Positions 9,724-61,416 of a stretch of 64,000 nucleotides of DNA are shown here, piece after piece. Origin of the DNA: a phage. Every line of letters begins with the position of its first letter. Within the stretch, counting starts at the first letter, position 1. Under the pieces are notes generated by a model. The model was not told the DNA's origin and searched no databases. It was given only the letters and a program-made list of their open reading frames with translations. A program made the position numbers and the translations under genes. The stretch lies in assembly GCA_016390365.1 (NCBI GenBank), contig GCA_016390365.1_3043.1; one strand, written 5' to 3'.

Positions 9724-9724
9724 T

Positions 9725-10267
9725 ATGAAAGCTGTAATTGAAACAACTGATTTGTTCGGTGACCTGGTTATCGAAAAACGTGGTAATGTATACGTTCTGA
9801 CGCAGGAAGACGATAGTATTACTATTCTTCCTATGGAACTGGCTGCGATTTTATCTTATGCTCCCTCAGGAGTTACCGGTGTAACTAATATTACAGACGA
9901 CCTCCAAGTTCGTTTTTATCGTGGCCTTTACGGCGGTAATATTGAAACTGAATTTATGTGTCTTTCTATCAGCAATTGGGCAACATTCGTTGTCAAGGTG
10001 AAAGAATTCTTAGAATCTGAAACAGTCGAAACACCCGAAAAGACTAAACTTCAATGGGCTAAAGATCGCGGTGCTAACATTATTAATCCAGTAGCTGCAA
10101 ATTATACTACGACTTTGGATGTCAAGACTTCTTATGAAGATGGTGATGTCTTAACTATTCGTCAAATTGATGATTTTCGATCGTATATTGTCACATTTAC
10201 CAAAGACGAAGCTATTGCGCTAAAGACTTATCTCGATTCTGTCATTCCAACTATGATTTCAAAGTGA
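9725..10267 (+). CDS. hypothetical protein, paralog of the next ORF
   Basis: start ATG 9725; C-terminus TFTKDEAIALKTYLDSVIPTM resembles SLSKSEAEAMIKYLTTVTPSM of 10274..10795. Confidence 0.55.
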   Translation: MKAVIETTDLFGDLVIEKRGNVYVLTQEDDSITILPMELAAILSYAPSGVTGVTNITDDLQVRFYRGLYGGNIETEFMCLSISNWATFVVKVKEFLESETVETPEKTKLQWAKDRGANIINPVAANYTTTLDVKTSYEDGDVLTIRQIDDFRSYIVTFTKDEAIALKTYLDSVIPTMISK

Positions 10268-21305: not shown

Positions 21306-23119
21306 CAATTGAAAAAGAAATTGAAGGATTGATTCATAAAACTAATAAAGACCTTTTAAACGAGAATGCTAATAAAGATTCTCGTGTTTTTCCAACTCAA
21401 CGGGACCTTATGGCTGGTATTGTGTCTAAACACATTGCCAAAAATATGGTCCCGTCTTTTATTATGAAAGCGCATGAAAGCGGAATTATTCATTTCCATG
21501 ATATTGATTATTCCCCTGCTCTCCCATTTACTAATTGCTGTTTAGTAGATTTAAAAGGAATGCTTGAAAACGGATTTAAGCTAGGTAATGCGCAGATTGA
21601 AACTCCTAAATCAATTGGCGTTGCTACTGCAATTATGGCGCAAATTACTGCGCAAGTTGCTTCCCATCAATACGGCGGAACGACTTTTGCGAATGTAGAT
21701 AAAGTACTTTCTCCTTATGTTAAACGCACCTATGCAAAACATATTGAGGATGCAGAAAAATGGCAAATCGCTGATGCGTTGAATTATGCTCAATCTAAAA
21801 CAGAAAAAGACGTATACGATGCATTTCAAGCTTATGAATATGAAGTAAACACTCTCTTTAGTTCAAACGGACAAACGCCTTTTGTAACAATTACATTTGG
21901 TACGGGAACTGACTGGACTGAACGAATGATTCAGAAAGCAATTCTGAAAAATCGTATTAAAGGTCTTGGTCGTGATGGGATAACTCCTATTTTCCCTAAG
22001 CTTGTTATGTTTGTTGAAGAAGGTGTTAATCTTTATAAAGACGATCCGAACTATGATATTAAGCAGCTTGCTCTAGAGTGCGCAAGCAAAAGAATGTATC
22101 CTGATATTATTTCAGCTAAGAACAATAAAGCTATCACCGGTTCATCTATTCCTGTTTCTCCGATGGGTTGCCGTAGTTTCTTGAGCGTATGGAAAGATTC
22201 GACTGGTAATGAAATTCTTGATGGACGTAATAATCTTGGTGTTGTAACACTGAATCTTCCTCGTATCGCATTAGATTCTTATATTGGAACACAGTTCAAT
22301 GAACAGAAATTTATCGAATTGTTCAATGAGCGAATGGATTTATGTTTTGAAGCTTTGATGTGTAGAATTAGTTCATTAAAAGGAGTTAAAGCGACTGTTG
22401 CTCCTATTCTTTACCAAGAAGGTGCATTCGGGGTTCGTCTTAAACCTGATGACGACATAATTGAGTTATTTAAAAACGGTAGAAGTTCAGTGTCCCTAGG
22501 ATACATTGGTATTCACGAATTGAATATTCTTGTCGGTCGTGATATTGGACAGGAAATTTTAACTAAAATGAATGCTCGTCTTAAACAGTGGACTGAAAGA
22601 ACCGGTTTTGCTTTTAGCTTGTATTCTACTCCCGCTGAAAACCTTTGTTATCGCTTCTGTAAACTTGATACTGAAAAATATGGAAGTGTAAAAGATGTTA
22701 CTGATAAAGGCTGGTACACTAATAGTTTCCATGTTTCAGTAGAAGAAAATATTACTCCGTTTGAAAAGATTTCTCGCGAAGCCCCATATCATTTCATTGC
22801 GACAGGTGGTCACATTTCTTATGTTGAACTTCCTGATATGAAAAATAACCTAAAAGGTCTTGAGGCTGTCTGGGATTATGCTGCACAACATTTAGATTAT
22901 TTTGGTGTTAATATGCCAGTAGATAAATGTTTTACATGTGGAAGTACCCATGAAATGACTCCTACTGAAAACGGATTTGTTTGTTCTATTTGTGGAGAAA
23001 CTGATCCTAAAAAGATGAACACAATAAGAAGAACATGTGGTTATTTGGGAAATCCGAACGAACGCGGATTTAATCTCGGCAAAAATAAAGAAATCATGCA
23101 TAGGGTTAAGCATCAATGA
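21302..23119 (+). CDS. nrdD: anaerobic ribonucleoside-triphosphate reductase NrdD
   Basis: 605 aa continuous ORF; C-terminal zinc site CFTCGSTHE...CSICG and glycyl-radical region RRTCGYLG. Confidence 0.95.
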   Translation: MTIEKEIEGLIHKTNKDLLNENANKDSRVFPTQRDLMAGIVSKHIAKNMVPSFIMKAHESGIIHFHDIDYSPALPFTNCCLVDLKGMLENGFKLGNAQIETPKSIGVATAIMAQITAQVASHQYGGTTFANVDKVLSPYVKRTYAKHIEDAEKWQIADALNYAQSKTEKDVYDAFQAYEYEVNTLFSSNGQTPFVTITFGTGTDWTERMIQKAILKNRIKGLGRDGITPIFPKLVMFVEEGVNLYKDDPNYDIKQLALECASKRMYPDIISAKNNKAITGSSIPVSPMGCRSFLSVWKDSTGNEILDGRNNLGVVTLNLPRIALDSYIGTQFNEQKFIELFNERMDLCFEALMCRISSLKGVKATVAPILYQEGAFGVRLKPDDDIIELFKNGRSSVSLGYIGIHELNILVGRDIGQEILTKMNARLKQWTERTGFAFSLYSTPAENLCYRFCKLDTEKYGSVKDVTDKGWYTNSFHVSVEENITPFEKISREAPYHFIATGGHISYVELPDMKNNLKGLEAVWDYAAQHLDYFGVNMPVDKCFTCGSTHEMTPTENGFVCSICGETDPKKMNTIRRTCGYLGNPNERGFNLGKNKEIMHRVKHQ

Positions 23120-23586
23120 ATTATGACAGAATATACCCGTGCTGCTTCGTGAATGGCCCTGGATGCAGGACCGTTCTTTTCGTTACAGGTTGTTTGCATA
23201 AATGCGAAGGGTGTTATAATAAATCAACATGGAATGCTAGAAATGGTATTCCATTTACTGGTGAAACACTAGAACAATTAATTGAATGTTTGAATAATGA
23301 TTATATAGAAGGATTAACTATAACTGGAGGAGACCCTCTTTATCCTGATAACAGAGACGTGATTCATTGCATTGTTCAAACAGTAAAAAATCTTTATCCC
23401 AATAAAAGCATTTGGTTGTGGACAGGATATAAATTTGAAGATATTAAACAACTAGAAATGCTTAAATATGTTGATGTTATTATTGATGGGAAGTATGAGA
23501 AAAATCTTCCGACTAAAAAGCTGTGGCGAGGATCAGATAATCAGCGGCTTTGGTCAAATACCGATGGGGTGTGGAAACATGATTAA
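23116..23586 (+). CDS. nrdG: anaerobic RNR activating enzyme NrdG (radical SAM)
   Basis: 156 aa with Cys cluster CRTVLFVTGCLHKCEGC. Confidence 0.9.
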   Translation: MNYDRIYPCCFVNGPGCRTVLFVTGCLHKCEGCYNKSTWNARNGIPFTGETLEQLIECLNNDYIEGLTITGGDPLYPDNRDVIHCIVQTVKNLYPNKSIWLWTGYKFEDIKQLEMLKYVDVIIDGKYEKNLPTKKLWRGSDNQRLWSNTDGVWKHD

Positions 23587-23701
23587 ATTGAATTATATTA
23601 TGGATACTATAAATGATATGATTTTTCATTTTGGTCCAGAATTTTATTCGCAATATAGTTTAGTGCTTATCAATGCTTGGTTAATTAATTAAGGGTAAAA
23701 T

Positions 23702-23917
23702 ATGTATAAATTTCGTAAAGGTTTAGCTGATTTTCTTACAACTGTAACATTCTTTCTGTTTATGGCAGTTGGAGCTATTTTCCTTATTCCTTTTATTGTT
23801 ATATTTTTCGTGATCAGTTTAATTTCTCCAGAAAAGGGCTTATCTTCTAGCGAGTTCAATGAGCGTCTGGATAAAATTACTAACAAACTGAATGCTGTTC
23901 TTGATAAAAAGGCCTAA
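23702..23917 (+). CDS. hypothetical small membrane protein
   Basis: TM segment VTFFLFMAVGAIFLIPFIVIFFVISLI. Confidence 0.45.
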   Translation: MYKFRKGLADFLTTVTFFLFMAVGAIFLIPFIVIFFVISLISPEKGLSSSEFNERLDKITNKLNAVLDKKA

Positions 23918-23919
23918 TT

Positions 23920-24231
23920 ATGATTAGTTTTGAGCGATATGTGGTAGAGAGTTGGAAGGGTTTTGATATGTTCGGTAATGACTATTATTTCTATGAATGT
24001 AGTCTAAATCCTAGTTTTTGGGCTGGACGTGAACGAGATCTCGAAGAAATTAATGCTCGTGTCGAATTGTTAGGTGAACTGCCTACGGTTTATTTTACCT
24101 TTGATGCATCTGGATTTGTTATCCAGGTTTATTTTCCTGAAGAAAACTCTGGTGAGGATTCTGTTAATCCTCCTTATTGGGCTTACCAAGGAATTATTTC
24201 TCGTGGAACAAAACTCGAACTTAAAGAATAA
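23920..24231 (+). CDS. hypothetical protein
   Basis: 103-codon ORF directly upstream of nrdH-like frame. Confidence 0.45.
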   Translation: MISFERYVVESWKGFDMFGNDYYFYECSLNPSFWAGRERDLEEINARVELLGELPTVYFTFDASGFVIQVYFPEENSGEDSVNPPYWAYQGIISRGTKLELKE

Positions 24232-24526
24232 GATTGAAGTCTATGGAATTCCAGATGAAGTAGGTCGTTGTCCTGGATGTCAATCAGTTACAAAACTTCT
24301 AAAGGAGCTCAATGCTCCTTTTACTTTCTATAAAGTTCTTACAAATAATGGTAAGATTGAGTATGATCGTCCACTGATTGTATCTCTTGCTAAACGCGCT
24401 GGATTCACATCTCTTAACATTCGTTATCCAGTCATTTTCATCAATGATTCTAGACAAAAGAACATTAAACACTTCAAAGAAACTCTCATTTCACTTGGAT
24501 ATGATAGAGATATCATAGAAGACTAA
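24203..24526 (+). CDS. nrdH: glutaredoxin-like protein NrdH (start codon uncertain)
   Basis: KIEVYGIPDEVGRCPGCQ with CPGC active site; no nearby in-frame ATG, GTG 24203 used provisionally. Confidence 0.6.
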   Translation: MEQNSNLKNKIEVYGIPDEVGRCPGCQSVTKLLKELNAPFTFYKVLTNNGKIEYDRPLIVSLAKRAGFTSLNIRYPVIFINDSRQKNIKHFKETLISLGYDRDIIED

Positions 24527-24553
24527 GGCGGGCCCTCTGGGCCTTTCTTTCTT
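24527..24553 (+). terminator. putative rho-independent terminator
   Basis: gggccc-tct-gggcc hairpin followed by T-rich tract. Confidence 0.5.
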
Positions 24554-24621
24554 ACATTCTGTATATTACCATTCTAAGCTATCGTTCCCTTCTTGTCATT
24601 CCCTAAAATATTTTTCACAAA

Positions 24622-24656
24622 GTTGTTTACAACAAGTTCAAACCGTGGTATTATTA
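24622..24656 (+). promoter_or_regulatory. early promoter
   Basis: gtttac 24625-24630, 17-bp spacer, cgtggtattat. Confidence 0.5.
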
Positions 24657-24684
24657 ACATATGAATTACCTTTGAGGAATTGAT

Positions 24685-24867
24685 ATGGTTGTGGTTGATA
24701 AAGAAATTAAAAAGGGACAATATTATTTTATTAATGGTAATGTTGTTCGTGTTACTTACGTAAATGGTTATGATGTTTATTATCTTATACTTAAGTTACA
24801 TAAACACATGATTTGTGATCGTGCTGTATTTAGTTCAGTTGCTAAGGAAATTAAACTCCATGGGTAA
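24685..24867 (+). CDS. hypothetical protein
   Basis: 60-codon ORF after SD gaggaa. Confidence 0.4.
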   Translation: MVVVDKEIKKGQYYFINGNVVRVTYVNGYDVYYLILKLHKHMICDRAVFSSVAKEIKLHG

Positions 24868-25153
24868 AACGTATCGTCGTAAAGACTTGAAAGTTCGTGA
24901 TTATGACTATTTCGGAAAGCGTAAAGCTCCTGATGGGGTAAGTCATAAAGATATGGTTGAAAACATTTTTCGTTCAGATAAATGGCGACGTATGCGAGGT
25001 GTTGATTCAGAGGTTAAGAATGAATTGAATCGTCAACTGCGTGGTGAAGTAAGAAAGTTGAAAAAATCAGTTTACATTGACGATGATTTTGATTATAATA
25101 CATCTCAACGAGTTGCTAAGCGCAAATCAAACGAGTGTTATCGTTACAGCTGA
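24860..25153 (+). CDS. hypothetical basic protein
   Basis: start ATG 24860; Arg/Lys-rich. Confidence 0.45.
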   Translation: MGKTYRRKDLKVRDYDYFGKRKAPDGVSHKDMVENIFRSDKWRRMRGVDSEVKNELNRQLRGEVRKLKKSVYIDDDFDYNTSQRVAKRKSNECYRYS

Positions 25154-25160
25154 GGAAAAT

Positions 25161-25292
25161 ATGAATATCAAACGAATGCTTTTTAAGCAGGGGTTATACA
25201 CTTTAAATGTTACTCCAAAAGGCGATACAACTAAGTGGTCAGTAAATGACTGGATTAAATTCATTGATGAAAATGGTAATTGGGAAATTTAA
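25161..25292 (+). CDS. hypothetical small protein
   Basis: 43-aa ORF after SD gaggaaa. Confidence 0.3.
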   Translation: MNIKRMLFKQGLYTLNVTPKGDTTKWSVNDWIKFIDENGNWEI

Positions 25293-25493
25293 ATGAATCC
25301 TGAATCTAAATTATCGCAGCGAATTGCTGAAGAACGCGCCAAATTTTTCCAGAACATGAAACACAATGGTATTGAGGATGAAGTTTTTCTAAATTGGTTC
25401 TGGAATAATAAGTATGCAGCATGCGAAGGAGCTTTGTCATTGTCAGTCGCAATGATGTATGAAGGCTGGAAGGGTGCCAAAAAGTTTAGCTAA
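25293..25493 (+). CDS. hypothetical protein
   Basis: 66-codon ORF followed by terminator. Confidence 0.4.
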   Translation: MNPESKLSQRIAEERAKFFQNMKHNGIEDEVFLNWFWNNKYAACEGALSLSVAMMYEGWKGAKKFS

Positions 25494-25512
25494 GGGCTTC
25501 GGCCCCTTTTTT
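25493..25512 (+). terminator. rho-independent terminator, UUCG tetraloop
   Basis: gggc-ttcg-gccc followed by T7. Confidence 0.6.
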
Positions 25513-27930: not shown

Positions 27931-29133
27931 ATGAAAGTATGTATTTTTATGGCTCGAGGTCTTGAAGGTTGTGGTGTAACAAAATTCTCACTCGAGCAAC
28001 GTGATTGGTTTATTAAAAATGGTCATGAAGTGACTTTGGTTTATGCTAAAGATAAATCATTTACTCGTAATTGCGCGCATGATTATAAATCATTTTCAAT
28101 TCCGGTTTTATTGGCAAAAGAATATGATAAAACACTTAAGCTGGTAAATGATTGTGATATTCTAATTATCAATTCAGTTCCTGCTACTTCGGTTGAAGAA
28201 GACACGATTAATAACTATAAAAAAATTATTGATAACATTAAACCTTCTGTTCGTGTTGTAGTTTATCAACATGACCATTCTTCTCTTTCTTTGCGTCGAA
28301 ATTTGGGATTAGAAGAAACTGTTCGTCGAGCTGATGTTATTTTTAGCCATTCTGATAATGGTGATTTTAATAAAGTTCTGATGAAAGAATGGTATCCTGA
28401 AACAGTTTCTCTGTTTGATGATATTGAAGAAGCACCGACAGTATATAACTTTCAGCCTCCTATGGATATTGCGAAGGTTCGGTCAACCTACTGGAAAGAT
28501 GTTTCTGAAATTAACATGAATATCAACCGTTGGATTGGTCGTACGACCACATGGAAAGGTTTTTATCAGATGTTTGATTTTCATGAAAAACATCTTAAAC
28601 CTGCAGGACTAAGTACTATTATGGAAGGTCTGGAACGTTCTCCAGCGTTCATTCCTATTAAAGAAAAAGGAATTCCATACGAGTATTATCGTCTTCATCA
28701 AGTAGACCAAATTAAAATTGCTCCTAATTTGCCAACGCAAATTCTTGACCGTTATGTAAATAGCGAAATGCTTGAACGTATGAGTAAATCCGGTTTTGGT
28801 TATCAGTTGAGTAAGTTGGATAAAAAATATCTACAACGTTCTTTAGAATATACTCATCTCGAGCTTGGTGCATGTGGAACAATTCCGGTATTTTGGAAAT
28901 CTACTGGCGAAAATTTAAAATTCCGTGTTGATAATACTCCTTTGACCTCGCATGATAGCGGTATCATTTGGTTTGATGAAAATGACATGGAATCAACATT
29001 TGAACGTATTAAAGAACTGTCATCTGACCGAACTCTTTATGACCGCGAACGCGAAAAAGCTTATGAATTTTTGTATCAGCATCAAGATTCAAGCTTCTGC
29101 TTTAAAGAACAGTTTGACATTATTACAAAATAA
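27931..29133 (+). CDS. agt: DNA alpha-glucosyltransferase
   Basis: 400 aa; N-terminus ICIFMARGLEGCGVTKFSLEQRDWFIKNGHEV matches recalled T4 alpha-gt. Confidence 0.9.
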   Translation: MKVCIFMARGLEGCGVTKFSLEQRDWFIKNGHEVTLVYAKDKSFTRNCAHDYKSFSIPVLLAKEYDKTLKLVNDCDILIINSVPATSVEEDTINNYKKIIDNIKPSVRVVVYQHDHSSLSLRRNLGLEETVRRADVIFSHSDNGDFNKVLMKEWYPETVSLFDDIEEAPTVYNFQPPMDIAKVRSTYWKDVSEINMNINRWIGRTTTWKGFYQMFDFHEKHLKPAGLSTIMEGLERSPAFIPIKEKGIPYEYYRLHQVDQIKIAPNLPTQILDRYVNSEMLERMSKSGFGYQLSKLDKKYLQRSLEYTHLELGACGTIPVFWKSTGENLKFRVDNTPLTSHDSGIIWFDENDMESTFERIKELSSDRTLYDREREKAYEFLYQHQDSSFCFKEQFDIITK

Positions 29134-30776: not shown

Positions 30777-32455
30777 AGAATTTTAAACTAAACCGAGTTA
30801 GGTATCAAAATATAATGTCAGTAGGTGGAAATCCTATTGACATTCAATTAGATAAGGTTCAAAAAACTCTTATTACTGGCCGAAATGGCGGTGGTAAGTC
30901 TACTATGTTAGAAGCCATCACATTTGGGCTTTTTGGCAAGCCATTTCGTGATGTAAAGAAAGGTCAATTAATAAACAGCACAAATAAGAAAGAACTTTTA
31001 GTTGAATTGTGGATGGAATATGATGAGAAAAAGTACTATATCAAAAGAGGACAAAAACCAAACGTTTTCGAAATCACCGTTAACGGTACACGTCTTAATG
31101 AATCTGCCAGCAGTAAAGATTTCCAAGCAGAATTTGAACAGCTTATCGGAATGTCATATGCCAGTTTCAAGCAGATTGTTGTTCTTGGTACAGCAGGGTA
31201 TACCCCTTTCATGGGTTTGTCGACCCCTGCGCGAAGAAAGCTTGTGGAAGACCTGCTTGAGGTAGGAACATTAGCTGAAATGGATAAGCTTAATAAAGCA
31301 CTAATACGTGAATTAAATTCACAAAACCAAGTGCTTGATGTTAAAAAAGATAGTATTATCCAACAAATTAAAATATATAATGATAACGTTGAACGCCAGA
31401 AAAAATTAACGGGTGACAACCTTACTCGTCTTCAAAATATGTATGATGATTTGGCAAAAGAAGCTAGAACGCTAAAATCGGAAATAGAAGAAGCTAATGA
31501 AAGATTAGTTAATATTGTTTTAGATGAAGACCCGACTGATGCATTTAATAAAATCGGTCAAGAAGCATTTTTAATTAAATCAAAAATTGACTCGTATAAT
31601 AAAGTCATTAATATGTATCACGAAGGTGGATTATGTCCAACCTGTTTGTCACAATTAAGTTCCGGTGATAAAGTTGTTTCTAAAATTAAAGATAAAGTTT
31701 CTGAATGCACGCATTCGTTTGAACAGCTTTCAACACATCGTGATAATTTAAAAGTTCTTGTTGATGAATACCGAGATAATATTAAAACCCAGCAGTCGTT
31801 GGCAAATGATATTCGCAATAAAAAGCAATCTCTAATCACGACGGTAGATAAAGCTAAAAAAGTTAAAGCAGCTATAGAAAAAGCATCTTCTGAGTTTATT
31901 GACCATGCTGATGAAATAGCATTGCTTCAAGAAGAACTTGATAAAATTGTTGAGACAAAAACTAATTTAGTAATGGAAAAATACCACCGAGGAATTTTGA
32001 CTGATATGCTCAAAGATTCTGGTATTAAAGGTGCTATTATTAAAAAGTACATTCCATTATTTAATAAGCAGATTAACCATTATCTTAAAATAATGGAAGC
32101 GGATTATGTGTTTACATTAGATGAAGAATTTAATGAGACAATTAAATCTCGTGGTCGTGAAGATTTTAGTTATGCTTCATTTAGTGAAGGTGAAAAGGCA
32201 AGAATTGATATTGCTCTTTTATTTACTTGGCGTGATATTGCTTCTATTGTATCTGGTGTTAGTATTAGTACATTAATACTCGATGAAGTGTTTGATGGGT
32301 CATTTGACGCCGAAGGTATTAAAGGTGTAGCTAATATTATAAATTCAATGAAAAACACTAATGTTTTTATAATTTCGCATAAAGACCATGACCCGCAAGA
32401 ATATGGTCAGCATCTTCAAATGAAGAAAGTTGGTCGATTTACTGTAATGGTTTAA
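30773..32455 (+). CDS. 46: recombination nuclease subunit gp46 (Rad50/SbcC-like ATPase)
   Basis: 560 aa; Walker A GRNGGGKST, zinc hook CPTC, signature motif SFSEGEKARI, D-loop LILDEVFD; GTG start. Confidence 0.95.
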   Translation: MKNFKLNRVRYQNIMSVGGNPIDIQLDKVQKTLITGRNGGGKSTMLEAITFGLFGKPFRDVKKGQLINSTNKKELLVELWMEYDEKKYYIKRGQKPNVFEITVNGTRLNESASSKDFQAEFEQLIGMSYASFKQIVVLGTAGYTPFMGLSTPARRKLVEDLLEVGTLAEMDKLNKALIRELNSQNQVLDVKKDSIIQQIKIYNDNVERQKKLTGDNLTRLQNMYDDLAKEARTLKSEIEEANERLVNIVLDEDPTDAFNKIGQEAFLIKSKIDSYNKVINMYHEGGLCPTCLSQLSSGDKVVSKIKDKVSECTHSFEQLSTHRDNLKVLVDEYRDNIKTQQSLANDIRNKKQSLITTVDKAKKVKAAIEKASSEFIDHADEIALLQEELDKIVETKTNLVMEKYHRGILTDMLKDSGIKGAIIKKYIPLFNKQINHYLKIMEADYVFTLDEEFNETIKSRGREDFSYASFSEGEKARIDIALLFTWRDIASIVSGVSISTLILDEVFDGSFDAEGIKGVANIINSMKNTNVFIISHKDHDPQEYGQHLQMKKVGRFTVMV

Positions 32456-32510
32456 TTTATAAGAGATTATGCTTTAATTTATTAGAGTATAATCTCTATG
32501 GAGGAAAAAC

Positions 32511-32699
32511 ATGGAATATTCAACTGGACAGCATTTATTAACTTTTCCTGAAATAAAACGATATATTCTGAGAAATAATTTTTCTAATGAAGAGCATATA
32601 GTTACTGAATCTATGCTTAGGAATGCATTTAAAGCAGAATATACAAAAATAATGTCCAATAGAAATGAAGCTTGGACTGTTACTGATTATTATGACTAA
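32511..32699 (+). CDS. hypothetical protein
   Basis: 62-codon ORF after SD ggaggaaa. Confidence 0.45.
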   Translation: MEYSTGQHLLTFPEIKRYILRNNFSNEEHIVTESMLRNAFKAEYTKIMSNRNEAWTVTDYYD

Positions 32700-38989: not shown

Positions 38990-39370
38990 ATGAAAATCGC
39001 TATTTTGGTTATTGCATTAGGTCTTACTGGTTGTGTAGCTCAAGGACCGGTAGTAAATCAGTCTGATGTAGGAAAAATTGTAAACTGTTCAAGCAAGTTT
39101 TATAATCCTAATGTCAAGTGTTATAAAGAAGCTCCAAAACAGACAGTAGAACAAATGCAGGCGAATTTTGACGAAGCTATTCGTCCAGATGAATCTGCTC
39201 AAGCATATCGTAATTCTGATGTAATTACACGCGAAGAAAAAATTGAAAACTACTGCGCCGAAATTTGGGCTAATTGGGCTAATAATTACCAATGGCGTAC
39301 TGGTAAAAATGCTCCGATGGAGTATGTAGTGAATTCTTATAATTCATGTGTAAAAAATTTGACTAAGTGA
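38990..39370 (+). CDS. hypothetical lipoprotein
   Basis: signal peptide with lipobox LTGC (MKIAILVIALGLTGC). Confidence 0.55.
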   Translation: MKIAILVIALGLTGCVAQGPVVNQSDVGKIVNCSSKFYNPNVKCYKEAPKQTVEQMQANFDEAIRPDESAQAYRNSDVITREEKIENYCAEIWANWANNYQWRTGKNAPMEYVVNSYNSCVKNLTK

Positions 39371-39377
39371 GGAAAAC

Positions 39378-39629
39378 ATGGAAACTTTAGTAGCAGGTTC
39401 AATTTTTATGGTTTTAGTTTCAGGTGTGTTGGCTATTATTATATACATGCTTCCATGGTTCATCGCCTTGATGCGTGGGTCAAAATCAACAGTAGGAATC
39501 TTTTTCACGTCTTTACTGTTTAACTGGTCAATTATTGGTTGGTTTATTACATTTATTTGGTCAATTGCGGGTGAAACTAAAAAGTCTGCACAACCAAATC
39601 AGGTAATTATCATCAGAGAGAAGGAATGA
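39378..39629 (+). CDS. imm: superinfection immunity membrane protein Imm
   Basis: 83 aa, two hydrophobic TM segments; position between 43 and 42. Confidence 0.7.
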   Translation: METLVAGSIFMVLVSGVLAIIIYMLPWFIALMRGSKSTVGIFFTSLLFNWSIIGWFITFIWSIAGETKKSAQPNQVIIIREKE

Positions 39630-39775
39630 AAAGCAAAATTATAACAGTGTTGCTTTTAATCTTGATGATTATAATAAGTATATACTATAGTGTAACGGTT
39701 CCTCTTATGATTCCAACTATTATTTTAGGTTGGAGCTTATTACTGTTACAAGTTAAATATGAATGTATCAATTGA
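39626..39775 (+). CDS. hypothetical small membrane protein
   Basis: 49-aa hydrophobic ORF, ATGA coupling to imm; not in track. Confidence 0.35.
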   Translation: MKSKIITVLLLILMIIISIYYSVTVPLMIPTIILGWSLLLLQVKYECIN

Positions 39776-39782
39776 GGTTTAA

Positions 39783-40523
39783 ATGATTAGTGACTCTATG
39801 ACAGTTGAAGAAATCCGTCTTCATTTGGGGCTTGCATTAAAAGAAAAAGATTTCGTAGTTGATAAAACCGGTGTTAAAACTATTGAAATTATTGGCGCAT
39901 CATTTGTAGCAGATGAACCGTTTATTTTTGGCGCTCTTAATGATGAATACATTCAGCGCGAACTTGAATGGTATAAATCTAAGAGCTTGTTTGTTAAAGA
40001 TATTCCAGGTGAAACACCAAAGATTTGGCAGCAGGTAGCATCTTCTAAAGGCGAAATTAACTCGAATTATGGTTGGGCTATTTGGTCAGAAGATAACTAT
40101 GCCCAGTATGATATGTGTTTAGCTGAACTTGGTCAAAATCCTGATTCTCGGCGTGGTATCATGATTTATACTCGTCCATCCATGCAATTTGACTACAATA
40201 AAGATGGTATGTCAGATTTCATGTGTACTAATACAGTACAGTACCTGATTCGTGATAAGAAAGTCAATGCAGTAGTAAGCATGCGCTCAAATGACGTGGT
40301 CTTCGGATTCCGTAATGATTATGCATGGCAAAAATATGTATTAGATAAATTAGTATCTGATTTGAATGCAGGCGATTCAACTCGTCAGTATAAAGCAGGT
40401 TCTATTATATGGAATGTTGGAAGTCTTCATGTATATTCTCGTCATTTTTACTTGGTTGATCATTGGTGGAATACTGGCGAAACTCATATTGTGAAAAAAG
40501 ATTATAACGGTGAGTGGAAATGA
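39783..40523 (+). CDS. 42: dCMP hydroxymethylase gp42
   Basis: 246 aa; thymidylate-synthase-like fold; matches recalled T4 gp42. Confidence 0.95.
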   Translation: MISDSMTVEEIRLHLGLALKEKDFVVDKTGVKTIEIIGASFVADEPFIFGALNDEYIQRELEWYKSKSLFVKDIPGETPKIWQQVASSKGEINSNYGWAIWSEDNYAQYDMCLAELGQNPDSRRGIMIYTRPSMQFDYNKDGMSDFMCTNTVQYLIRDKKVNAVVSMRSNDVVFGFRNDYAWQKYVLDKLVSDLNAGDSTRQYKAGSIIWNVGSLHVYSRHFYLVDHWWNTGETHIVKKDYNGEWK

Positions 40524-41362
40524 TTCAATTCGTAATTCCAAGCTATCAACGTGTAGGGGCAGTTTCTGCCCTTGATATGTTTCCGACTGATTATGAACCT
40601 CATATCGTAGTACGTGAACATGAAGAAAAAGCTTATTATGATGCCTATGGGTCTAGAGCTAAAATTATAACTATTCCTGATGATGTAAACGGAATTGCCG
40701 GTACTCGTAAAGCAATTACTGATATGTATGCAGGTCAACGAATCTGGATGATTGACGATGATACTACTATTCGTATGAGTTTAATGCGAAAAAGAGATGA
40801 CCGTCGTTGTGTAGATAAAGTCAATCAATTGACTCGTGAACAGTTCTATGAATTGATTCAATATGTTGAGGATGCCATGGATTGCGGGTATTATCATGGC
40901 CATGCTCGTCTACCAATTTTTAAAATTACTTCATCTTGGGGTAATTATCGTGAAAATTCATATGGATTTACGAATACATGGTATGACCTCGGAAAACTTA
41001 CGACAGAACAAATTGGGTATGGAAAAATTGATTTATGCGAAGATATGTATGCATTTCTCAATTTAATTAATCAAGGTTATCCGCATTTGGCCTTGTTCAA
41101 ATATCTGGTTGTATCTGGAAAAGCACAAGCTCCTGGCGGGTGTAGTTCAATTCGTAGTAATTCTAAACATAATAGAGCGCTTGAGCAAATCAATAGAGAG
41201 TTTCCAGAGCAAGCTCGTTGGAAAACTTCTAATATCGAAAAACGAAAATCGTTGGGTGAAGAAGACGAGCCATTAAAGGTTCTTCGCATGTGTGTTTCGC
41301 GCAAAGAAAAATCAGAAGCATTTCATAAGTTTAATGCTATTCATCCGATAGCAGTTGATTAA
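40520..41362 (+). CDS. DNA glucosyltransferase, GT-A-like with DxD motif (beta-alpha-gt type rather than T4 beta-gt)
   Basis: 280 aa with IWMIDDDTTI DxD motif; occupies the bgt slot between 42 and uvsX but does not resemble T4 beta-gt. Confidence 0.6.
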   Translation: MIQFVIPSYQRVGAVSALDMFPTDYEPHIVVREHEEKAYYDAYGSRAKIITIPDDVNGIAGTRKAITDMYAGQRIWMIDDDTTIRMSLMRKRDDRRCVDKVNQLTREQFYELIQYVEDAMDCGYYHGHARLPIFKITSSWGNYRENSYGFTNTWYDLGKLTTEQIGYGKIDLCEDMYAFLNLINQGYPHLALFKYLVVSGKAQAPGGCSSIRSNSKHNRALEQINREFPEQARWKTSNIEKRKSLGEEDEPLKVLRMCVSRKEKSEAFHKFNAIHPIAVD

Positions 41363-41439
41363 TGCCTAAATTTATTGTGTTATAATTACTCTATCTTTAA
41401 CCAGTGAGGAAAATATAATGATGCCTATGGAAAAAATGA

Positions 41440-42621
41440 ATGTCTATTGCAGATTTAAAATCCCGTTTGATTAAAGCTTCCACTTCTAAAATGACTGCTG
41501 AACTGACTACATCTAAATTCTTTAATGAAAAGGATGTAATTCGTACAAAAATTCCAATGCTTAATATTGCTATTTCTGGTGCGATTGATGGCGGCATGCA
41601 GTCTGGTTTAACTATTTTCGCAGGGCCTTCTAAACACTTTAAATCAAATATGTCTTTGACTATGGTTGCGGCGTATTTGAACAAATATCCTGACGCGGTT
41701 TGTCTATTCTATGATAGTGAATTTGGTATTACTCCAGCTTATTTGCGATCCATGGGAGTTGACCCGGAACGAGTAATTCATACGCCAATCCAGTCAGTTG
41801 AACAGCTGAAAATTGATATGGTGAATCAGCTTGAAGCTATTGAGCGCGGTGAAAAAGTTATTGTATTCATCGACTCAATTGGTAATATGGCTTCTAAGAA
41901 AGAAACGGAAGATGCCTTGAATGAAAAATCTGTGGCAGATATGACTCGTGCTAAATCACTGAAGTCATTATTCCGTATTGTTACTCCTTACTTTAGCATT
42001 AAAAATATTCCATGTGTTGCGGTTAACCATACAATTGAAACAATTGAAATGTTTAGTAAAACCGTGATGACAGGTGGTACAGGCGTAATGTATTCGGCTG
42101 ATACCGTATTCATTATCGGTAAGCGTCAGATTAAAGATGGTTCTGATCTTCAGGGGTATCAATTTGTTCTAAATGTAGAAAAATCTCGTACCGTTAAAGA
42201 AAAAAGTAAATTCTTTATTGATGTTAAATTTGACGGTGGTATCGATCCTTATTCTGGATTGTTAGATATGGCTCTAGAATTAGGATTTGTAGTAAAACCT
42301 AAAAATGGCTGGTATGCTCGTGAATTTCTTGACGAAGAAACCGGCGAGATGATTCGCGAAGAAAAATCTTGGCGTGCAAAAGATACTAACTGCACTACAT
42401 TCTGGGGTCCTTTATTTAAGCATCAACCATTCCGAGATGCTATTAAACGTGCTTATCAGTTAGGTGCTATTGATAGTAATGAAATTGTTGAAGCTGAAGT
42501 CGATGAATTGATTAACTCAAAGGTTGAAAAATTTAAATCTCCAGAAAGTAAAAGTAAATCAGCTGCTGATTTAGAAACTGACCTCGAGCAGTTAAGTGAT
42601 ATGGAAGAATTTAATGAATAA
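41440..42621 (+). CDS. uvsX: RecA-like recombinase UvsX
   Basis: 393 aa; Walker A GPSKHFKS; closely matches recalled T4 UvsX. Confidence 0.95.
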   Translation: MSIADLKSRLIKASTSKMTAELTTSKFFNEKDVIRTKIPMLNIAISGAIDGGMQSGLTIFAGPSKHFKSNMSLTMVAAYLNKYPDAVCLFYDSEFGITPAYLRSMGVDPERVIHTPIQSVEQLKIDMVNQLEAIERGEKVIVFIDSIGNMASKKETEDALNEKSVADMTRAKSLKSLFRIVTPYFSIKNIPCVAVNHTIETIEMFSKTVMTGGTGVMYSADTVFIIGKRQIKDGSDLQGYQFVLNVEKSRTVKEKSKFFIDVKFDGGIDPYSGLLDMALELGFVVKPKNGWYAREFLDEETGEMIREEKSWRAKDTNCTTFWGPLFKHQPFRDAIKRAYQLGAIDSNEIVEAEVDELINSKVEKFKSPESKSKSAADLETDLEQLSDMEEFNE

Positions 42622-45250: not shown

Positions 45251-45883
45251 ATGATTTATTATATGCACAAAAATCCACCGTTTAAATACGGTAAATTTCC
45301 TGATGCACAATGTTATAATATAACGCCTGATGAAAATAACCGTGGATATCTTATTGGCACAATTTTTGTAATTGTTAAAGATAACGAAATCGTTGCCTGG
45401 GCAGATTTTAAAGGTACAACATATGATGTTAATCCGGTGCCTTTCACATATTACAATTTAATGGATTTGGCATACGATTATAATTGGTTTAATCATGATA
45501 CTTTGGCTCATATTGAAGGTGTAGGATTTGATATTTCATATTCGGAATACACTTTAAGCCCTATGAGTCGAGCCCATAAAGAACCTGAATATTTTTCATT
45601 TAGGAAACGTGTAAACTTTAAACGCAGCACAGAGTATGTCGGTGGAATTTTTGTTAAAGATAATCGAATTATTCGTATTAATTATCCTTTGAGCGTTAGT
45701 CAAAAAGATATTGATGTTGATTTAGATTTCACTGAAAATAATATTAATAATATTGCTTCTGTGTATTTTGGTATCGATCACAAAATTGTAATATGTGGAT
45801 ATGAATTACCGTTTGAAGAACAGCCTAAAGTAAAAGTTTCTATTGACGATCAAATTTTTAATGCTTTTATGAATAAAGGTTAA
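45251..45883 (+). CDS. 61.2-like protein with internal repeats
   Basis: 210 aa; repeated VKDN-containing motifs; C-terminus IDDQIFNAFMNKG. Confidence 0.6.
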   Translation: MIYYMHKNPPFKYGKFPDAQCYNITPDENNRGYLIGTIFVIVKDNEIVAWADFKGTTYDVNPVPFTYYNLMDLAYDYNWFNHDTLAHIEGVGFDISYSEYTLSPMSRAHKEPEYFSFRKRVNFKRSTEYVGGIFVKDNRIIRINYPLSVSQKDIDVDLDFTENNINNIASVYFGIDHKIVICGYELPFEEQPKVKVSIDDQIFNAFMNKG

Positions 45884-45887
45884 TATG
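45839..45887 (+). repeat. direct repeat copy 1 (gene 3' end)
   Basis: 49 nt, about 4 mismatches to 46197..46245. Confidence 0.7.
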
Positions 45888-46241
45888 TATAGTTCTGAAT
45901 TTTCATATTTAAAAATGGAAAAAATTTCATACGATTTTATAGATGAAAAGGTTTATTACAGTTTCCATGAACCGCGTTTTAATAGTGAGGTTGGGTTTAT
46001 TGTAGTAAAAGACAATTTCATTTTAAAGATATATTCGGCATTAAAGGATTTTCACTACGAAAATATTAACCTAAAATTTGATAAAGAAAACGTTCGTAAT
46101 TGTGCAGTAACAATTACAGGAAATAAAGGTGCATGTGTTATGCTATCTGATGAAATTAATGATTTGCTAAATGATGCAGAAAATATTACTGCGCCATCTA
46201 TTGATGACCAAATTTTTAATGCTTTTATGAATAGAGGTTAA
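45885..46241 (+). CDS. hypothetical protein sharing C-terminal module with 61.2-like gene
   Basis: 118 aa ending IDDQIFNAFMNRG. Confidence 0.5.
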   Translation: MYSSEFSYLKMEKISYDFIDEKVYYSFHEPRFNSEVGFIVVKDNFILKIYSALKDFHYENINLKFDKENVRNCAVTITGNKGACVMLSDEINDLLNDAENITAPSIDDQIFNAFMNRG

Positions 46242-46245
46242 TATG
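46197..46245 (+). repeat. direct repeat copy 2 (gene 3' end)
   Basis: matches 45839..45887. Confidence 0.7.
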
Positions 46246-46407
46246 AAAACATATAAAGAATTTATCAAAGAAGATATGGTTGCTGGAGATTCAGGTGGTA
46301 ATCCTGAAAATATCTCTACTGGAACAGCGTCAGGCGCTGTAGTAAATAAAGGCCCTGAACAGATTTCTAAAAAGAAAAAAGAGGAATCTAAAGAAAAAGA
46401 AGAGTAA
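46243..46407 (+). CDS. hypothetical small protein with capsid-targeting-like N-terminus
   Basis: 54 aa MKTYKEFIKEDMVAGDSGG...; N-terminus resembles internal-protein CTS; Lys/Glu-rich tail; not in track. Confidence 0.4.
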   Translation: MKTYKEFIKEDMVAGDSGGNPENISTGTASGAVVNKGPEQISKKKKEESKEKEE

Positions 46408-47705: not shown

Positions 47706-48224
47706 ATGGCATACTTTAATGAATGTTCACAACTGATTGAAGGCGCTGATAAAGCTCAAAATGAATACTGGGATATTCTCGGTGATGAAAAAGACCCGTT
47801 GCAAGTTATGCTTGATATGCAGAAATCTCTGCAGGTTCGTTTAGCTAAAGATAAACCTGAATATAACCGTCATCCTGATGATTTGGCTACTGCGGGTGAA
47901 GTTGTTGATTGGCTGCGTAATCAGAAAGATTATATTGATGATGAATTCCGCGAACTATTGACTTCTCTTGGTGGTATGAGCAATGGTGAAAAAGATGCAT
48001 CTGCTGTATGGAAGCCTTGGAAAGCTCAACATGGTGAACGACGTGAAACTCTGATTACTGATTTGTCTCCACAAGACCAGTTGGAAATTAAATTCGAAAT
48101 GATTGATATTCTTCATTTCGTTCTGAACATGTTCCAAGGCCTCGGTCTTACGGCTGAAGAAATCTTTAAACTTTATTATCTGAAAAATGCTGAAAACTTC
48201 GCTCGTCAAGACCGAGGTTATTAA
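47706..48224 (+). CDS. 56: dCTPase/dUTPase gp56
   Basis: 172 aa from ATG 47706 (MAYFNECSQLIEGADKAQNEYWDILGDEKDP), matches recalled T4 gp56. Confidence 0.9.
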   Translation: MAYFNECSQLIEGADKAQNEYWDILGDEKDPLQVMLDMQKSLQVRLAKDKPEYNRHPDDLATAGEVVDWLRNQKDYIDDEFRELLTSLGGMSNGEKDASAVWKPWKAQHGERRETLITDLSPQDQLEIKFEMIDILHFVLNMFQGLGLTAEEIFKLYYLKNAENFARQDRGY

Positions 48225-59552: not shown

Positions 59553-59598
59553 ATGATTACCGGAGTATAATATTCCCGAAACCAAACGAGGATAAGTG

Positions 59599-61416
59599 AT
59601 GATTAAGAATGAAATTAAAATTCTGAGCGATATTGAACATATCAAAAAGCGTAGCGGCATGTATATTGGCTCTTCTGCTAATGAAATGCATGAGCGCTTT
59701 CTGTTTGGTAAATGGGAAAGTGTTCAGTATGTACCTGGTCTTGTTAAGCTTATTGATGAAATTATCGATAACTCAGTAGATGAAGGTATTCGTACTAAGT
59801 TTAAATTCGCAAATAAAATTAATGTTACTATTAAAAACAATCAAGTAACAGTTGAAGATAACGGTCGCGGTATTCCACAAGCGATGGTTAAAACACCTAC
59901 CGGTGAAGAAATTCCTGGTCCTGTTGCTGCATGGACTATTCCAAAAGCAGGTGGTAACTTTGGTGATGATAAAGAACGCGTCACTGGCGGTATGAATGGT
60001 GTTGGTTCTAGTTTGACAAACATTTTTTCTGTGATGTTTGTCGGTGAAACTGGTGATGGTCAAAATAATATTGTAGTTCGTTGTTCAAATGGCATGGAAA
60101 ATAAATCATGGGAAGATATTCCTGGAAAATGGAAAGGAACTCGTGTTACTTTCATTCCTGATTTTATGTCATTTGAAACTAATGAGCTGTCCCAAGTTTA
60201 TCTTGACATTACACTAGATCGTCTCCAGACACTTGCAGTAGTTTATCCTGATATTCAATTTACCTTTAATGGTAAAAAGGTTCAGGGCAATTTTAAGAAA
60301 TATGCACGCCAATATGATGAGCATGCTATTGTTCAAGAACAAGAAAATTGCTCTATTGCGGTTGGTCGTTCACCGGATGGTTTTCGTCAATTAACTTATG
60401 TGAATAACATTCACACTAAGAATGGTGGCCATCACATTGACTGTGTTATGGATGATATTTGTGAAGACCTTATTCCACAAATCAAACGTAAGTTCAAAAT
60501 TGATGTGACTAAAGCACGCGTTAAAGAATGTTTGACTATCGTTATGTTTGTCCGTGATATGAAAAACATGCGATTTGATTCTCAAACTAAAGAGCGTTTG
60601 ACTTCTCCATTTGGCGAAATTCGTAGTCATATTCAACTCGACGCTAAAAAGATTTCACGCGCTATTCTAAATAATGAAGCAATTCTGATGCCGATTATTG
60701 AAGCTGCACTAGCTCGTAAATTGGCGGCGGAAAAGGCAGCAGAAACTAAAGCAGCTAAAAAGGCTTCTAAAGCTAAGGTTCATAAACATATTAAAGCGAA
60801 TCTTTGTGGTAAAGATGCTGACACTACTCTTTTCTTGACTGAGGGTGATTCGGCTATCGGATATCTTATTGATGTTCGTGATAAAGAACTTCACGGTGGT
60901 TATCCATTACGTGGTAAAGTTCTCAACAGTTGGGGTATGTCTTATGCAGATATGCTTAAAAACAAAGAACTATTTGATATTTGCGCAATCACTGGATTAG
61001 TTCTCGGTGAAAAAGCTGAAAACTTGAATTATCATAATATCGCTATTATGACTGATGCTGACCATGATGGCCTAGGAAGCATTTATCCTTCTCTGCTTGG
61101 ATTTTTTAGTAATTGGCCAGAACTGTTTGAGCAAGGACGAATTCGCTTTGTCAAAACTCCTGTAATCATCGCACAGATTGGTAAAAAACAAGAATGGTTT
61201 TATACAGTCGCTGAATATGAGAGTGCTAAAGATGCTCTACCTAAACATAGCATCCGTTATATTAAAGGACTTGGCTCTTTGGAAAAATCTGAATATCGTG
61301 AGATGATTCAAAATCCAGTATATGATGTTGTTAAACTTCCTGAGAATTGGAAAGAGCTTTTTGAAATGCTCATGGGAGATAATGCTGACCTTCGTAAAGA
61401 ATGGATGAGCCAGTAG
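59599..61416 (+). CDS. 39: DNA topoisomerase II large subunit gp39 (GyrB-like ATPase), unsplit form
   Basis: 605 aa continuous; GHKL ATPase and Toprim motifs (EGDSA); no separate gene 60. Confidence 0.95.
   Translation: MIKNEIKILSDIEHIKKRSGMYIGSSANEMHERFLFGKWESVQYVPGLVKLIDEIIDNSVDEGIRTKFKFANKINVTIKNNQVTVEDNGRGIPQAMVKTPTGEEIPGPVAAWTIPKAGGNFGDDKERVTGGMNGVGSSLTNIFSVMFVGETGDGQNNIVVRCSNGMENKSWEDIPGKWKGTRVTFIPDFMSFETNELSQVYLDITLDRLQTLAVVYPDIQFTFNGKKVQGNFKKYARQYDEHAIVQEQENCSIAVGRSPDGFRQLTYVNNIHTKNGGHHIDCVMDDICEDLIPQIKRKFKIDVTKARVKECLTIVMFVRDMKNMRFDSQTKERLTSPFGEIRSHIQLDAKKISRAILNNEAILMPIIEAALARKLAAEKAAETKAAKKASKAKVHKHIKANLCGKDADTTLFLTEGDSAIGYLIDVRDKELHGGYPLRGKVLNSWGMSYADMLKNKELFDICAITGLVLGEKAENLNYHNIAIMTDADHDGLGSIYPSLLGFFSNWPELFEQGRIRFVKTPVIIAQIGKKQEWFYTVAEYESAKDALPKHSIRYIKGLGSLEKSEYREMIQNPVYDVVKLPENWKELFEMLMGDNADLRKEWMSQ

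What the first reader, a model, noticed from the sequence alone, without database searches (positions are those of the whole stretch)
40520..41362. DxD-motif glucosyltransferase in place of T4 beta-glucosyltransferase
The gene after 42 encodes a 280-aa protein with a GT-A-type DxD motif (IWMIDDDTTI) and no resemblance to the recalled T4 beta-gt N-terminus. This suggests a T2/T6-like beta-alpha (gentiobiosyl) glucosylation pattern of hydroxymethylcytosine, which changes sensitivity to modification-dependent restriction.
Basis: partly seen in the sequence, partly recalled or inferred. Interest (0 to 1): 0.5.

Follow-up and report, generated by a model that had tools for sequence, protein, structure and literature searches.

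The report
T2/T6-type second glucosyltransferase gene (ba-gt)
This T4-like phage carries, where T4 has its beta-glucosyltransferase, the well-known T2/T6-type enzyme that adds a second glucose to already glucosylated DNA cytosines; this is the usual arrangement in this phage group.

Summary
Window 40520-41362 (+) is an intact 280-aa ORF directly after gene 42, with IWMIDDDTTI at residues 75-84. It has no detectable similarity to T4 beta-gt.

The protein is 277/280 identical to phage T2 ggt/ba-gt. It is 279/280 identical to the protein of phage Solly, whose DNA is reported as about two-thirds gentiobiosyl-hmC by HPLC/MS. It belongs to Pfam TAGT (PF20691) and PHROG 842, and its model has a GT-A, GT2-like fold.

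The genes that supply its substrate are in the same window: a-gt (27931-29133), gene 42 and gene 56. The same gene sits at the same place in 475 phage records. T4-type beta-gt at 90% identity or more is in about 29, so T4 is the exception.

Relative to T4 this is a clean cassette swap: 946 nt here against 1941 nt (b-gt plus segA) in T4.

One refinement: the window allele keeps every family-conserved residue, whereas T2 alone has R11H at a site that is Arg in 119/120 relatives. I therefore predict a T6-like (high), not T2-like (5%), gentiobiosyl content.

Already known; low interest.

The parts
40520..41362 (+). ba-gt / ggt: beta-glucosyl-HMC-alpha-glucosyltransferase (TAGT family, GT-A fold), 280 aa
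   Evidence: Intact ORF. 277/280 identical to T2 and 279/280 to Solly. Pfam PF20691 scores 38.8 bits against a 27.5 cut-off. PHROG 842 at 6e-89. 475 phage records carry it at >=90% nt identity.
40754..40762 (+). Codons for D79-D80-D81, the DxD metal/UDP-sugar-binding motif, following beta-strand IWMI
   Evidence: D80 is present in 120/120 family members, D79 in 117/120 and D81 in 118/120. In the AF2 model the motif follows strand 74-77. It aligns with the DDD of the GT2 enzyme 9jma in a weak profile match.
40535..40552 (+). Codons for I6-P7-S8-Y9-Q10-R11, the N-terminal GT2-like 'IPxYxR' nucleotide-binding motif; R11 is intact here
   Evidence: I6 117/120, P7 114/120, R11 119/120. It aligns with IPTYNR of 9jma. 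R11H occurs only in the T2 lineage.
40506..41451 (+). Cassette that differs from T4: 946 nt here in place of T4 23556-25496 (b-gt, intergenic region and segA; 1941 nt)
   Evidence: blastn homology with T4 ends at window 40505 and resumes at 41452. GC content is the same as in the flanks.
39783..40523 (+). Gene 42, dCMP hydroxymethylase, which makes hm-dCMP; its stop overlaps the ba-gt start
   Evidence: Pfam Thymidylat_synt. 96% nt identity to T4 across 39000-40505. Annotation in relatives.
27931..29133 (+). a-gt, DNA alpha-glucosyltransferase, which makes alpha-glucosyl-hmC, the acceptor for ba-gt
   Evidence: Pfam AGT at 786 bits. 365/400 identical to T4 a-gt.
47706..48224 (+). Gene 56, dCTPase/dUTPase, which excludes dCTP so that the DNA is fully hmC
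   Evidence: Pfam dUTPase_2. Collinear with the gene annotated as dCTPase/dCDPase in Paracelsus. Translation.
41363..41386 (+). Possible MotA-type middle promoter for uvsX just after the ba-gt stop (TGCCTAA, 11 nt, TATAAT)
   Evidence: Read directly from the sequence and identical in T2, T6 and Paracelsus. The assignment rests on the MotA-box consensus recalled from memory and was not tested. The sigma-70 scan did not call it.

Best explanation
The ORF encodes the T2/T6-type beta-alpha-glucosyltransferase (ba-gt, also written ggt, g-gt or TAGT; EC 2.4.1.28 from my own knowledge). The pathway has four steps. Gene 56 dCTPase and gene 42 hydroxymethylase replace dCTP by hm-dCTP. DNA polymerase builds hmC DNA. 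The GT-B enzyme alpha-gt puts one glucose in alpha linkage on most hmC. This GT-A enzyme then transfers a second glucose from UDP-glucose onto the 6-OH of that first glucose, in beta-1,6 linkage, giving gentiobiosyl-hmC. Inferred chemistry: it is an inverting, metal-dependent, GT2-like mechanism. D79-D81 (DxD) hold the divalent metal and the UDP diphosphate, the N-terminal IPSYQR loop binds the nucleotide, and the invariant D175 (ED motif) is the likely catalytic base. Because the allele is intact at every family-conserved position, and is one residue away from that of a phage measured at about two-thirds gentiobiosyl-hmC, the DNA of this phage is expected to be mostly gentiobiosyl-hmC plus unglucosylated hmC, with no beta-glucosyl-hmC. 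The second sugar hides alpha-glucosyl-hmC from defences that read it. Shown here: identity, family, fold, conserved motifs, synteny and the presence of the upstream pathway genes. Taken from the literature: enzyme activity, gentiobiosyl content of relatives and defence phenotypes. Inferred: the catalytic roles of individual residues and the actual modification level in this phage.
For: Sequence identity: 277/280 to T2 ggt, 279/280 to Paracelsus ba-gt and 279/280 to Solly. Against T6 (NC_054907) there are four substitutions and one deleted residue.

Family: PHROG 842 'beta-glucosyl-HMC-alpha-glucosyltransferase' at 6e-89; Pfam TAGT above its gathering score.

Conserved residues: I6, P7, R11, R63, D79-81, D175, L180, G186, G206, G207, R212 and P229 are all present.

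Context: a-gt, gene 42 and gene 56 are in the window. No beta-gt homologue is present in the window.

Literature: T2/T6 ba-gt makes gentiobiosyl-hmC (PMC6024577; PMC13216743; Winkler & Ruger 1993, pmid 8464751, as cited in PMC11946311). Durham Tequatrovirus phages with a-gt plus TAGT and no beta-gt contain alpha-gentiobiosyl-mdC and no beta-glc-mdC by HPLC/MS (PMC13390438). The T6 delta-ba-gt phenotypes are reported in PMC11078745 and bioRxiv 10.64898/2026.02.25.707755.
Against: Nothing argues against the identity of the gene. Four things limit the functional prediction. No chemistry was done on this phage. Close relatives with the same gene fall into two measured classes (about 40% and about 67% gentiobiosyl, PMC13390438), and T2 has only 5%, so presence of the gene does not fix the extent. 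The window protein has L88 where the compared relatives (T2, T6, Paracelsus, Solly and the representative of the 485-member cluster, P0001) have S88; that position is not conserved in the family. The model is of only moderate confidence, with residues 126-151 and 194-211 below pLDDT 50, so the residue roles are inference.
Confidence: 0.93

Rival explanations
1. The gene is the ba-gt orthologue but works poorly in this phage, as in T2, so the DNA is mainly mono-alpha-glucosylated with only a few percent gentiobiosyl-hmC.
For: T2 carries a 99%-identical gene yet is reported to have only ~5% gentiobiosyl-hmC (PMC6024577). The window protein has L88 where the compared relatives have S88. Relatives such as EL, BGP and Geo show an intermediate 1:2:2 ratio (PMC13390438).
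Against: The T2-specific R11H change, at a site that is Arg in 119/120 family members, occurs only in the eight T2-lineage records and is absent here. Position 88 is highly variable in the family. Solly, identical except for S88, has about two-thirds gentiobiosyl-hmC (PMC13390438).
Confidence: 0.06
2. It is a TAGT-family enzyme with a different specificity: another sugar donor, or direct glycosylation of hmC rather than of alpha-glucosyl-hmC.
For: The TAGT family is large (2146 cluster representatives at E <= 0.001). Members occur with beta-gt instead of a-gt, or with neither (PMC13216743; PMC6024577), so specificity must vary across the family.
Against: At 98-99% identity to the T2/T6 enzymes, and to phages whose DNA was measured, a change of specificity is very unlikely. 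Those phages contain gentiobiosyl-hmC and no beta-glucosyl-hmC (PMC13390438).
Confidence: 0.01
3. It is a highly diverged T4-type beta-glucosyltransferase that makes beta-glucosyl-hmC.
For: Only the position: it sits in the slot that beta-gt occupies in T4.
Against: No BLASTP similarity and no PF09198 hit (with the positive control). The fold is GT-A, not GT-B. DNA homology with T4 stops at the cassette borders.
Confidence: 0

Closest known systems
Phage T2 / T6 beta-glucosyl-HMC-alpha-glucosyltransferase (ba-gt, ggt; Winkler & Ruger 1993; PHROG 842)
   Same: Same gene: 98% nt and 99% aa identity, the same 280-aa length, the same position between gene 42 and uvsX, and the same partner a-gt.
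   Different: The window has consensus residues where the database copies of the classical phages carry lesions: T2 has R11H (and P251S); T6 MH550421 has an amber codon at position 10; T6 NC_054907 lacks one Asp of the DDD. The window has L88 where the compared relatives have S88.
Phage T4 beta-glucosyltransferase (b-gt, PF09198, GT-B fold; PDB 1JG7 as cited in PMC13216743)
   Same: Same genomic slot, same UDP-glucose donor, and a beta linkage formed in both cases. Both add to the hmC modification layer after replication.
   Different: Unrelated sequence and fold. T4 b-gt glucosylates bare hmC, whereas ba-gt glucosylates the glucose of alpha-glucosyl-hmC. The T4 cassette also carries the homing endonuclease segA, which is absent here.
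Pfam PF20691 TAGT (TET-associated glycosyltransferase) family
   Same: The protein scores above the gathering threshold over the full model, positions 2-205 of 205, and shares all the conserved motifs.
   Different: Here the partner is not a TET/JBP dioxygenase. The hmC comes from the gene 42 nucleotide-level pathway, and the acceptor is a sugar already on the base.
GT2-family inverting GT-A glycosyltransferases (e.g. AvpGT 9jma, TarP 6h1j, BcsA 9fmv/4p00)
   Different: Sequence identity is only 6-17% and the profile match is not significant (E 0.089). The acceptor is modified DNA, not a lipid, polysaccharide or teichoic acid.
Arabinosyl-hmC system of RB69/Mosigvirus
   Same: An alternative sugar decoration of hydroxymethylated or hydroxylated cytosine in T4-like phages, including a disaccharide form (PMC6024577; PMC13390438).
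   Different: It uses different enzymes and a different sugar. It was not compared here beyond the literature.

Membership tests
T2/T6 ba-gt (beta-glucosyl-HMC-alpha-glucosyltransferase) orthologue group | Near-full-length, high sequence identity to the T2/T6 enzymes | tested here: met
   277/280 identical to T2. Four substitutions plus one deleted residue against T6 NC_054907. PHROG 842 at E 6e-89, covering residues 1-275.
T2/T6 ba-gt (beta-glucosyl-HMC-alpha-glucosyltransferase) orthologue group | Located between gene 42 and uvsX | tested here: met
   Gene order 43 - imm.1 - imm - 42 - ORF - uvsX - 40 - 41, the same as in T2, T6 and Paracelsus.
T2/T6 ba-gt (beta-glucosyl-HMC-alpha-glucosyltransferase) orthologue group | Genome also encodes the alpha-gt that makes its acceptor, and the hmC pathway (genes 42 and 56) | tested here: met
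   a-gt at 27931-29133, gene 42, gene 56.
T2/T6 ba-gt (beta-glucosyl-HMC-alpha-glucosyltransferase) orthologue group | Transfers glucose from UDP-glucose to alpha-glucosyl-hmC in beta-1,6 linkage; virion DNA contains gentiobiosyl-hmC | not testable with these tools
   Biochemistry is needed. Indirect support: Solly (279/280 identical) has about two-thirds alpha-gentiobiosyl-mdC by HPLC/MS (PMC13390438).
Pfam PF20691 TAGT | Score above the curated gathering threshold | tested here: met
   38.8 bits against a 27.5 cut-off; model positions 2-205 of 205.
Pfam PF20691 TAGT | Family-conserved residues present (IP..R N-terminal motif, R63, DDD, D175, G186, GG(C)S..R, P229) | tested here: met
   All are present in the window protein. 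Column counts come from 120 homologues.
GT-A fold, GT2-like inverting glycosyltransferases | Single Rossmann-like nucleotide-binding domain with GT-A topology | tested here: met
GT-A fold, GT2-like inverting glycosyltransferases | DxD motif at the end of a hydrophobic beta-strand | tested here: met
   IWMI (strand 74-77) is followed by D79-D81. The motif is invariant or nearly invariant.
GT-A fold, GT2-like inverting glycosyltransferases | Significant sequence similarity to a CAZy GT2 member | tested here: inconclusive
   A single sequence finds no PDB relative. The family profile gives only E 0.089 to AvpGT 9jma, though the motifs are in register.
T4 beta-glucosyltransferase (PF09198, GT-B) | Sequence similarity to T4 b-gt / PF09198 | tested here: not met
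   Best BLASTP E is 2.3. There is no PF09198 hit at E <= 1, and T4 b-gt as a control scores 325 bits.
T4 beta-glucosyltransferase (PF09198, GT-B) | Two-domain GT-B fold | tested here: not met
   The model matches GT-A enzymes.

The most novel reading that the evidence does not exclude
The window allele represents the intact, ancestral, fully active ba-gt. On this reading, the long-known difference between T2 (5% gentiobiosyl-hmC) and T6 (72%) is caused by a T2-lineage-specific R11H substitution in the GT2-like nucleotide-binding motif, at a site that is Arg in 119 of 120 family members. More broadly, database copies of the classical laboratory phages (T2; T6 MH550421 with an amber at codon 10; T6 NC_054907 with DDD reduced to DD) have each picked up a lesion in this gene, which would suggest relaxed or negative selection on the second glucosylation during laboratory passage.
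Probability: 0.35. Interest if true: 0.3.

Novelty: already known. Interest (0 to 1): 0.1.

Why it matters
For this window it matters only as annotation. It tells a user that the phage DNA should carry gentiobiosyl-hmC rather than T4's mix of alpha- and beta-glucosyl-hmC. That predicts its behaviour towards Brig1-type glycosylases, BapA-type deglucosylases, GmrSD/BrxU-type restriction, and restriction enzymes and CRISPR tools in the laboratory. It is also a reminder that T4, the reference genome, is the atypical member of its genus at this locus. The side observation on T2 R11H would, if confirmed, give a one-residue explanation for a difference reported in 1960.

Tried and rejected
- T4-type beta-gt: rejected by BLASTP, Pfam and a tblastn of T4 b-gt against the whole window (best E 1.5).
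- Solved structure by sequence: none for the single protein. With a 120-sequence profile there is only a non-significant GT2 hit, plus spurious polycystin matches.
- Foreign-composition cassette: GC content is 0.36, the same as the flanks, so composition gives no signal of recent import.
- Own promoter or terminator: the sigma-70/terminator scan of 39300-41700 gave numbers near the shuffle expectation (14 found against 10.4 expected; 1 against 1.2). The only terminator-like hairpin lies inside the 5' end of the CDS. The gene is more simply read as translationally coupled to gene 42 (ATGA overlap).
- Minus-strand ORFs over the locus (78 aa at 40502-40738; 75 aa at 41077-41304): they overlap the strongly conserved + strand gene, were not searched separately, and were taken as spurious.
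- The primary paper, Winkler & Ruger 1993 (PMC309348), is not held in the library, so it is cited only through another paper's reference list.
- The 'contingency loci' preprint was checked as a possible explanation of the lesions in T2/T6 ba-gt. It concerns agt, not ba-gt.

Full report
**What is there.**
Window 40520-41362 (+) is an intact ORF of 280 codons.
- Its ATG overlaps the TGA of the preceding gene (ATGA). That gene is dCMP hydroxymethylase, gene 42 (Pfam Thymidylat_synt).
- The next gene downstream, after 77 nt, is uvsX (Pfam T4_UVSX_C and RecA).
- The whole window is a Tequatrovirus (T4-like) genome segment on the + strand. It is collinear with phage Paracelsus/Bas36 at 94-98% identity, apart from a few small indels.

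- Against T4 beta-gt (351 aa, taken from NC_000866), BLASTP finds only chance fragments, best E 2.3.
- Pfam gives no PF09198 hit at E <= 1, while T4 beta-gt scores 325 bits on that model.
- A tblastn of T4 beta-gt against the whole 64 kb finds nothing, best E 1.5.
- Against T2 ggt the protein is 277/280 identical. Against Paracelsus 'hmC beta-alpha-glucosyltransferase ba-gt' it is 279/280. Against T6 (NC_054907) it differs by four substitutions and one deleted residue.
- PHROG 842 'beta-glucosyl-HMC-alpha-glucosyltransferase' matches at 6e-89, and Pfam PF20691 TAGT matches above its threshold.

**How common it is.**
- The gene is present at >=90% nt identity, over its full length, in 475 phage records. 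T4-type beta-gt at >=90% aa identity is in about 29.
- Published surveys say the same. Twelve of 14 sequenced T4-like RB phages have a-gt plus ba-gt (PMC6024577). Only 6 of 753 phage genomes combine a-gt with b-gt, while a-gt plus TAGT is the rule (PMC13216743).
- So 'in place of T4 beta-gt' is true, but T4 is the exception.

**Locus anatomy relative to T4.**
- DNA homology with T4 (96%) runs to window 40505, 18 nt before the end of gene 42. It resumes (90%) at 41452, just inside uvsX.
- Between these points the window has 946 nt. T4 has 1941 nt containing b-gt, an intergenic stretch and the homing endonuclease segA.
- The window has no segA or mobB homologue.
- GC content of the cassette (0.36) equals that of the flanks.

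**Fold and motifs.**
- An AlphaFold2 model built from a 10-sequence alignment has pLDDT 70 and pTM 0.72. The N-terminal 80 residues are at 85-95.
- An exhaustive profile search found 2146 cluster representatives at E <= 0.001.
- In an alignment of 120 of these, down to ~20% identity, the conserved positions are I6, P7, R11, R63, D79-D80-D81, D175, L180, G186, G206-G207, R212 and P229. The window protein has all of them.
- The family profile aligns, weakly (E 0.089), with the GT2 enzyme AvpGT. IPSYQR aligns on IPTYNR and DDD on DDD.
- I infer, without having tested it, that DDD binds the metal and UDP, that the IPSYQR loop binds the nucleotide, and that D175 is the catalytic base of an inverting transfer. 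This fits the alpha-UDP-glucose to beta-1,6 outcome known for the T2/T6 enzyme.

**Pathway context.**
The acceptor-making enzyme a-gt is at 27931-29133 (Pfam AGT at 786 bits; 91% identical to T4). Gene 42 is adjacent, and gene 56 dCTPase is at 47706-48224. The full T2/T6-type pathway is thus encoded within this window.

**What the DNA should look like.**
- The literature gives T2 as 70% alpha-glucosyl, 5% gentiobiosyl and 25% bare hmC. T6 is 3%, 72% and 25% (PMC6024577; bioRxiv 10.64898/2026.02.25.707755).
- Ten Durham Tequatrovirus phages with a-gt plus TAGT and no b-gt were measured by HPLC/MS. They contain no beta-glucosyl-mdC. Their gentiobiosyl-mdC content is either ~40% (EL, BGP, Geo) or about two-thirds (Solly and six others) (PMC13390438).
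- Solly's protein is 279/280 identical to the window's, differing only at S88 versus L88.
- T2's copy differs by R11H, L88S and P251S. R11 is Arg in 119 of 120 family members, and the single His is T2 itself.
- The exact 31-mer carrying the CAT codon occurs only in eight records: seven T2 records and SV76, a record of the same length as T2 AP018813. The CGT version occurs in 107.
- I therefore predict a high, T6/Solly-like gentiobiosyl level for this phage. I also suggest that R11H is why T2 is low. That is an inference, and I found no paper stating it in the searches made.

**Effect on host defences (from papers).**
- Brig1 excises alpha-glucosyl-hmC, does not degrade T6 DNA, and restricts T6 delta-ba-gt more strongly than wild type. 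It still restricts Bas35-45, presumably by acting before the second glucose is added (PMC11078745).
- BapA releases glucose from alpha- and beta-glucosyl-hmC but not from T6 DNA, unless g-gt is deleted (bioRxiv 10.64898/2026.02.25.707755).
- GmrSD and BrxU still cut gentiobiosyl DNA (PMC13216743; PMC13390438).

**Verdict.**
Observation confirmed and interpretation supported. The feature is a known gene in its usual place, 98-99% identical to copies that have been characterised. Novelty: already known. Interest is low. The only added value is the prediction of a T6-like rather than T2-like extent, plus the side note on lesions in the database copies of T2 and T6.

Noticed in passing
L002:3001-3843 (T2 MH751506), compared with window 40550-40552: T2's ba-gt has His at residue 11, where 119 of 120 family members (including the window) have Arg. 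The CAT codon is found only in the eight T2-lineage records. This is a possible one-residue cause of T2's low (5%) gentiobiosyl-hmC.
   Followed up: partly
L004:2138-2980 (-) (T6 MH550421) and L007:241-1080 (T6 NC_054907/AP018814): The two T6 genome records each carry a different lesion in ba-gt. MH550421 has an amber codon at position 10 (CAG to TAG; its CDS is annotated from Met20). The other record has an in-frame loss of one Asp of the near-invariant DDD motif (279 aa). This is odd for the phage reputed to be 72% gentiobiosylated. It could reflect stock mutations, tolerated variants or sequencing errors.
   Followed up: partly
window 40781-40783 (codon 88 of ba-gt): The window has Leu88 (TTA) where T2, T6, Paracelsus, Solly and the 485-member cluster representative have Ser (TCA). 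The position is variable in the wider family.
   Followed up: partly
window 1749-2222 (+): A 157-aa ORF after denV, absent from Paracelsus. It matches PHROG 3155 'internal virion protein' and Pfam DUF7412, and its N-terminus MKTYQEFITE looks like the T4 internal-protein capsid-targeting sequence (recalled from memory). It is a polymorphic internal-protein locus; T4 internal proteins are reported to inhibit GmrSD-type restriction of glucosylated DNA (PMC13216743).
   Followed up: partly
window 46243-46407 (+): A 54-aa ORF just upstream of the primase gene begins MKTYKEFIKE, resembling the internal-protein capsid-targeting sequence. It matches PHROG 1823, function unknown.
   Followed up: no
window 45251-45883 and 45885-46241 (+): Two adjacent ORFs end with nearly the same C-terminal peptide (SIDDQIFNAFMNKG / SIDDQIFNAFMNRG). 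The second (118 aa, PHROG 4122) is absent from Paracelsus, so this looks like a local paralogue insertion.
   Followed up: no
window 59596-61416 (+): The topoisomerase II large subunit is a single 606-aa ORF with GyrB/HATPase and TOPRIM_C domains. It is unsplit, unlike T4, where (from memory) it is divided into genes 39 and 60 with the translational bypass.
   Followed up: partly
window 32442-32513, ~23110-23160 and 41363-41439, compared with L006:214-930, L006:10257-11096 and T4 segA/mobB: The window lacks the homing endonuclease genes that relatives carry at these spots: T4 segA and mobB, and two putative homing endonucleases of Paracelsus next to gene 46 and between nrdG and nrdD.
   Followed up: partly
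window 40554-40574 (+): A GC-rich hairpin (GGGGCAG ttt CTGCCCT) followed by a T-rich stretch lies inside codons 12-19 of ba-gt and is identical in T2, T6 and Paracelsus. The scan flagged it as terminator-like; its significance is unknown.
   Followed up: no
window 41363-41386 (+): TGCCTAA, then 11 nt, then TATAAT, directly after the ba-gt stop and 54 nt before uvsX. It resembles a MotA-dependent middle promoter (consensus recalled from memory).
   Followed up: no
NC_024121 (Serratia phage PS2) 21765-22811 and protein P0010; also myPSH1140 and KMB26: Some T4-like phages carry a T4-type beta-gt (~50% identity) together with a TAGT homologue (~49% identity to the window protein) and apparently no a-gt. 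This implies a second glucose added onto beta-glucosyl-hmC, or a different TAGT specificity. It has also been noted in PMC6024577 and PMC13216743.
   Followed up: no
window 9540-10132 (+): A stretch without a counterpart in Paracelsus. It overlaps a 62-aa ORF and the 5' part of a 184-aa ORF (PHROG 1502, function unknown) in the nrdC-tk variable region.
   Followed up: no
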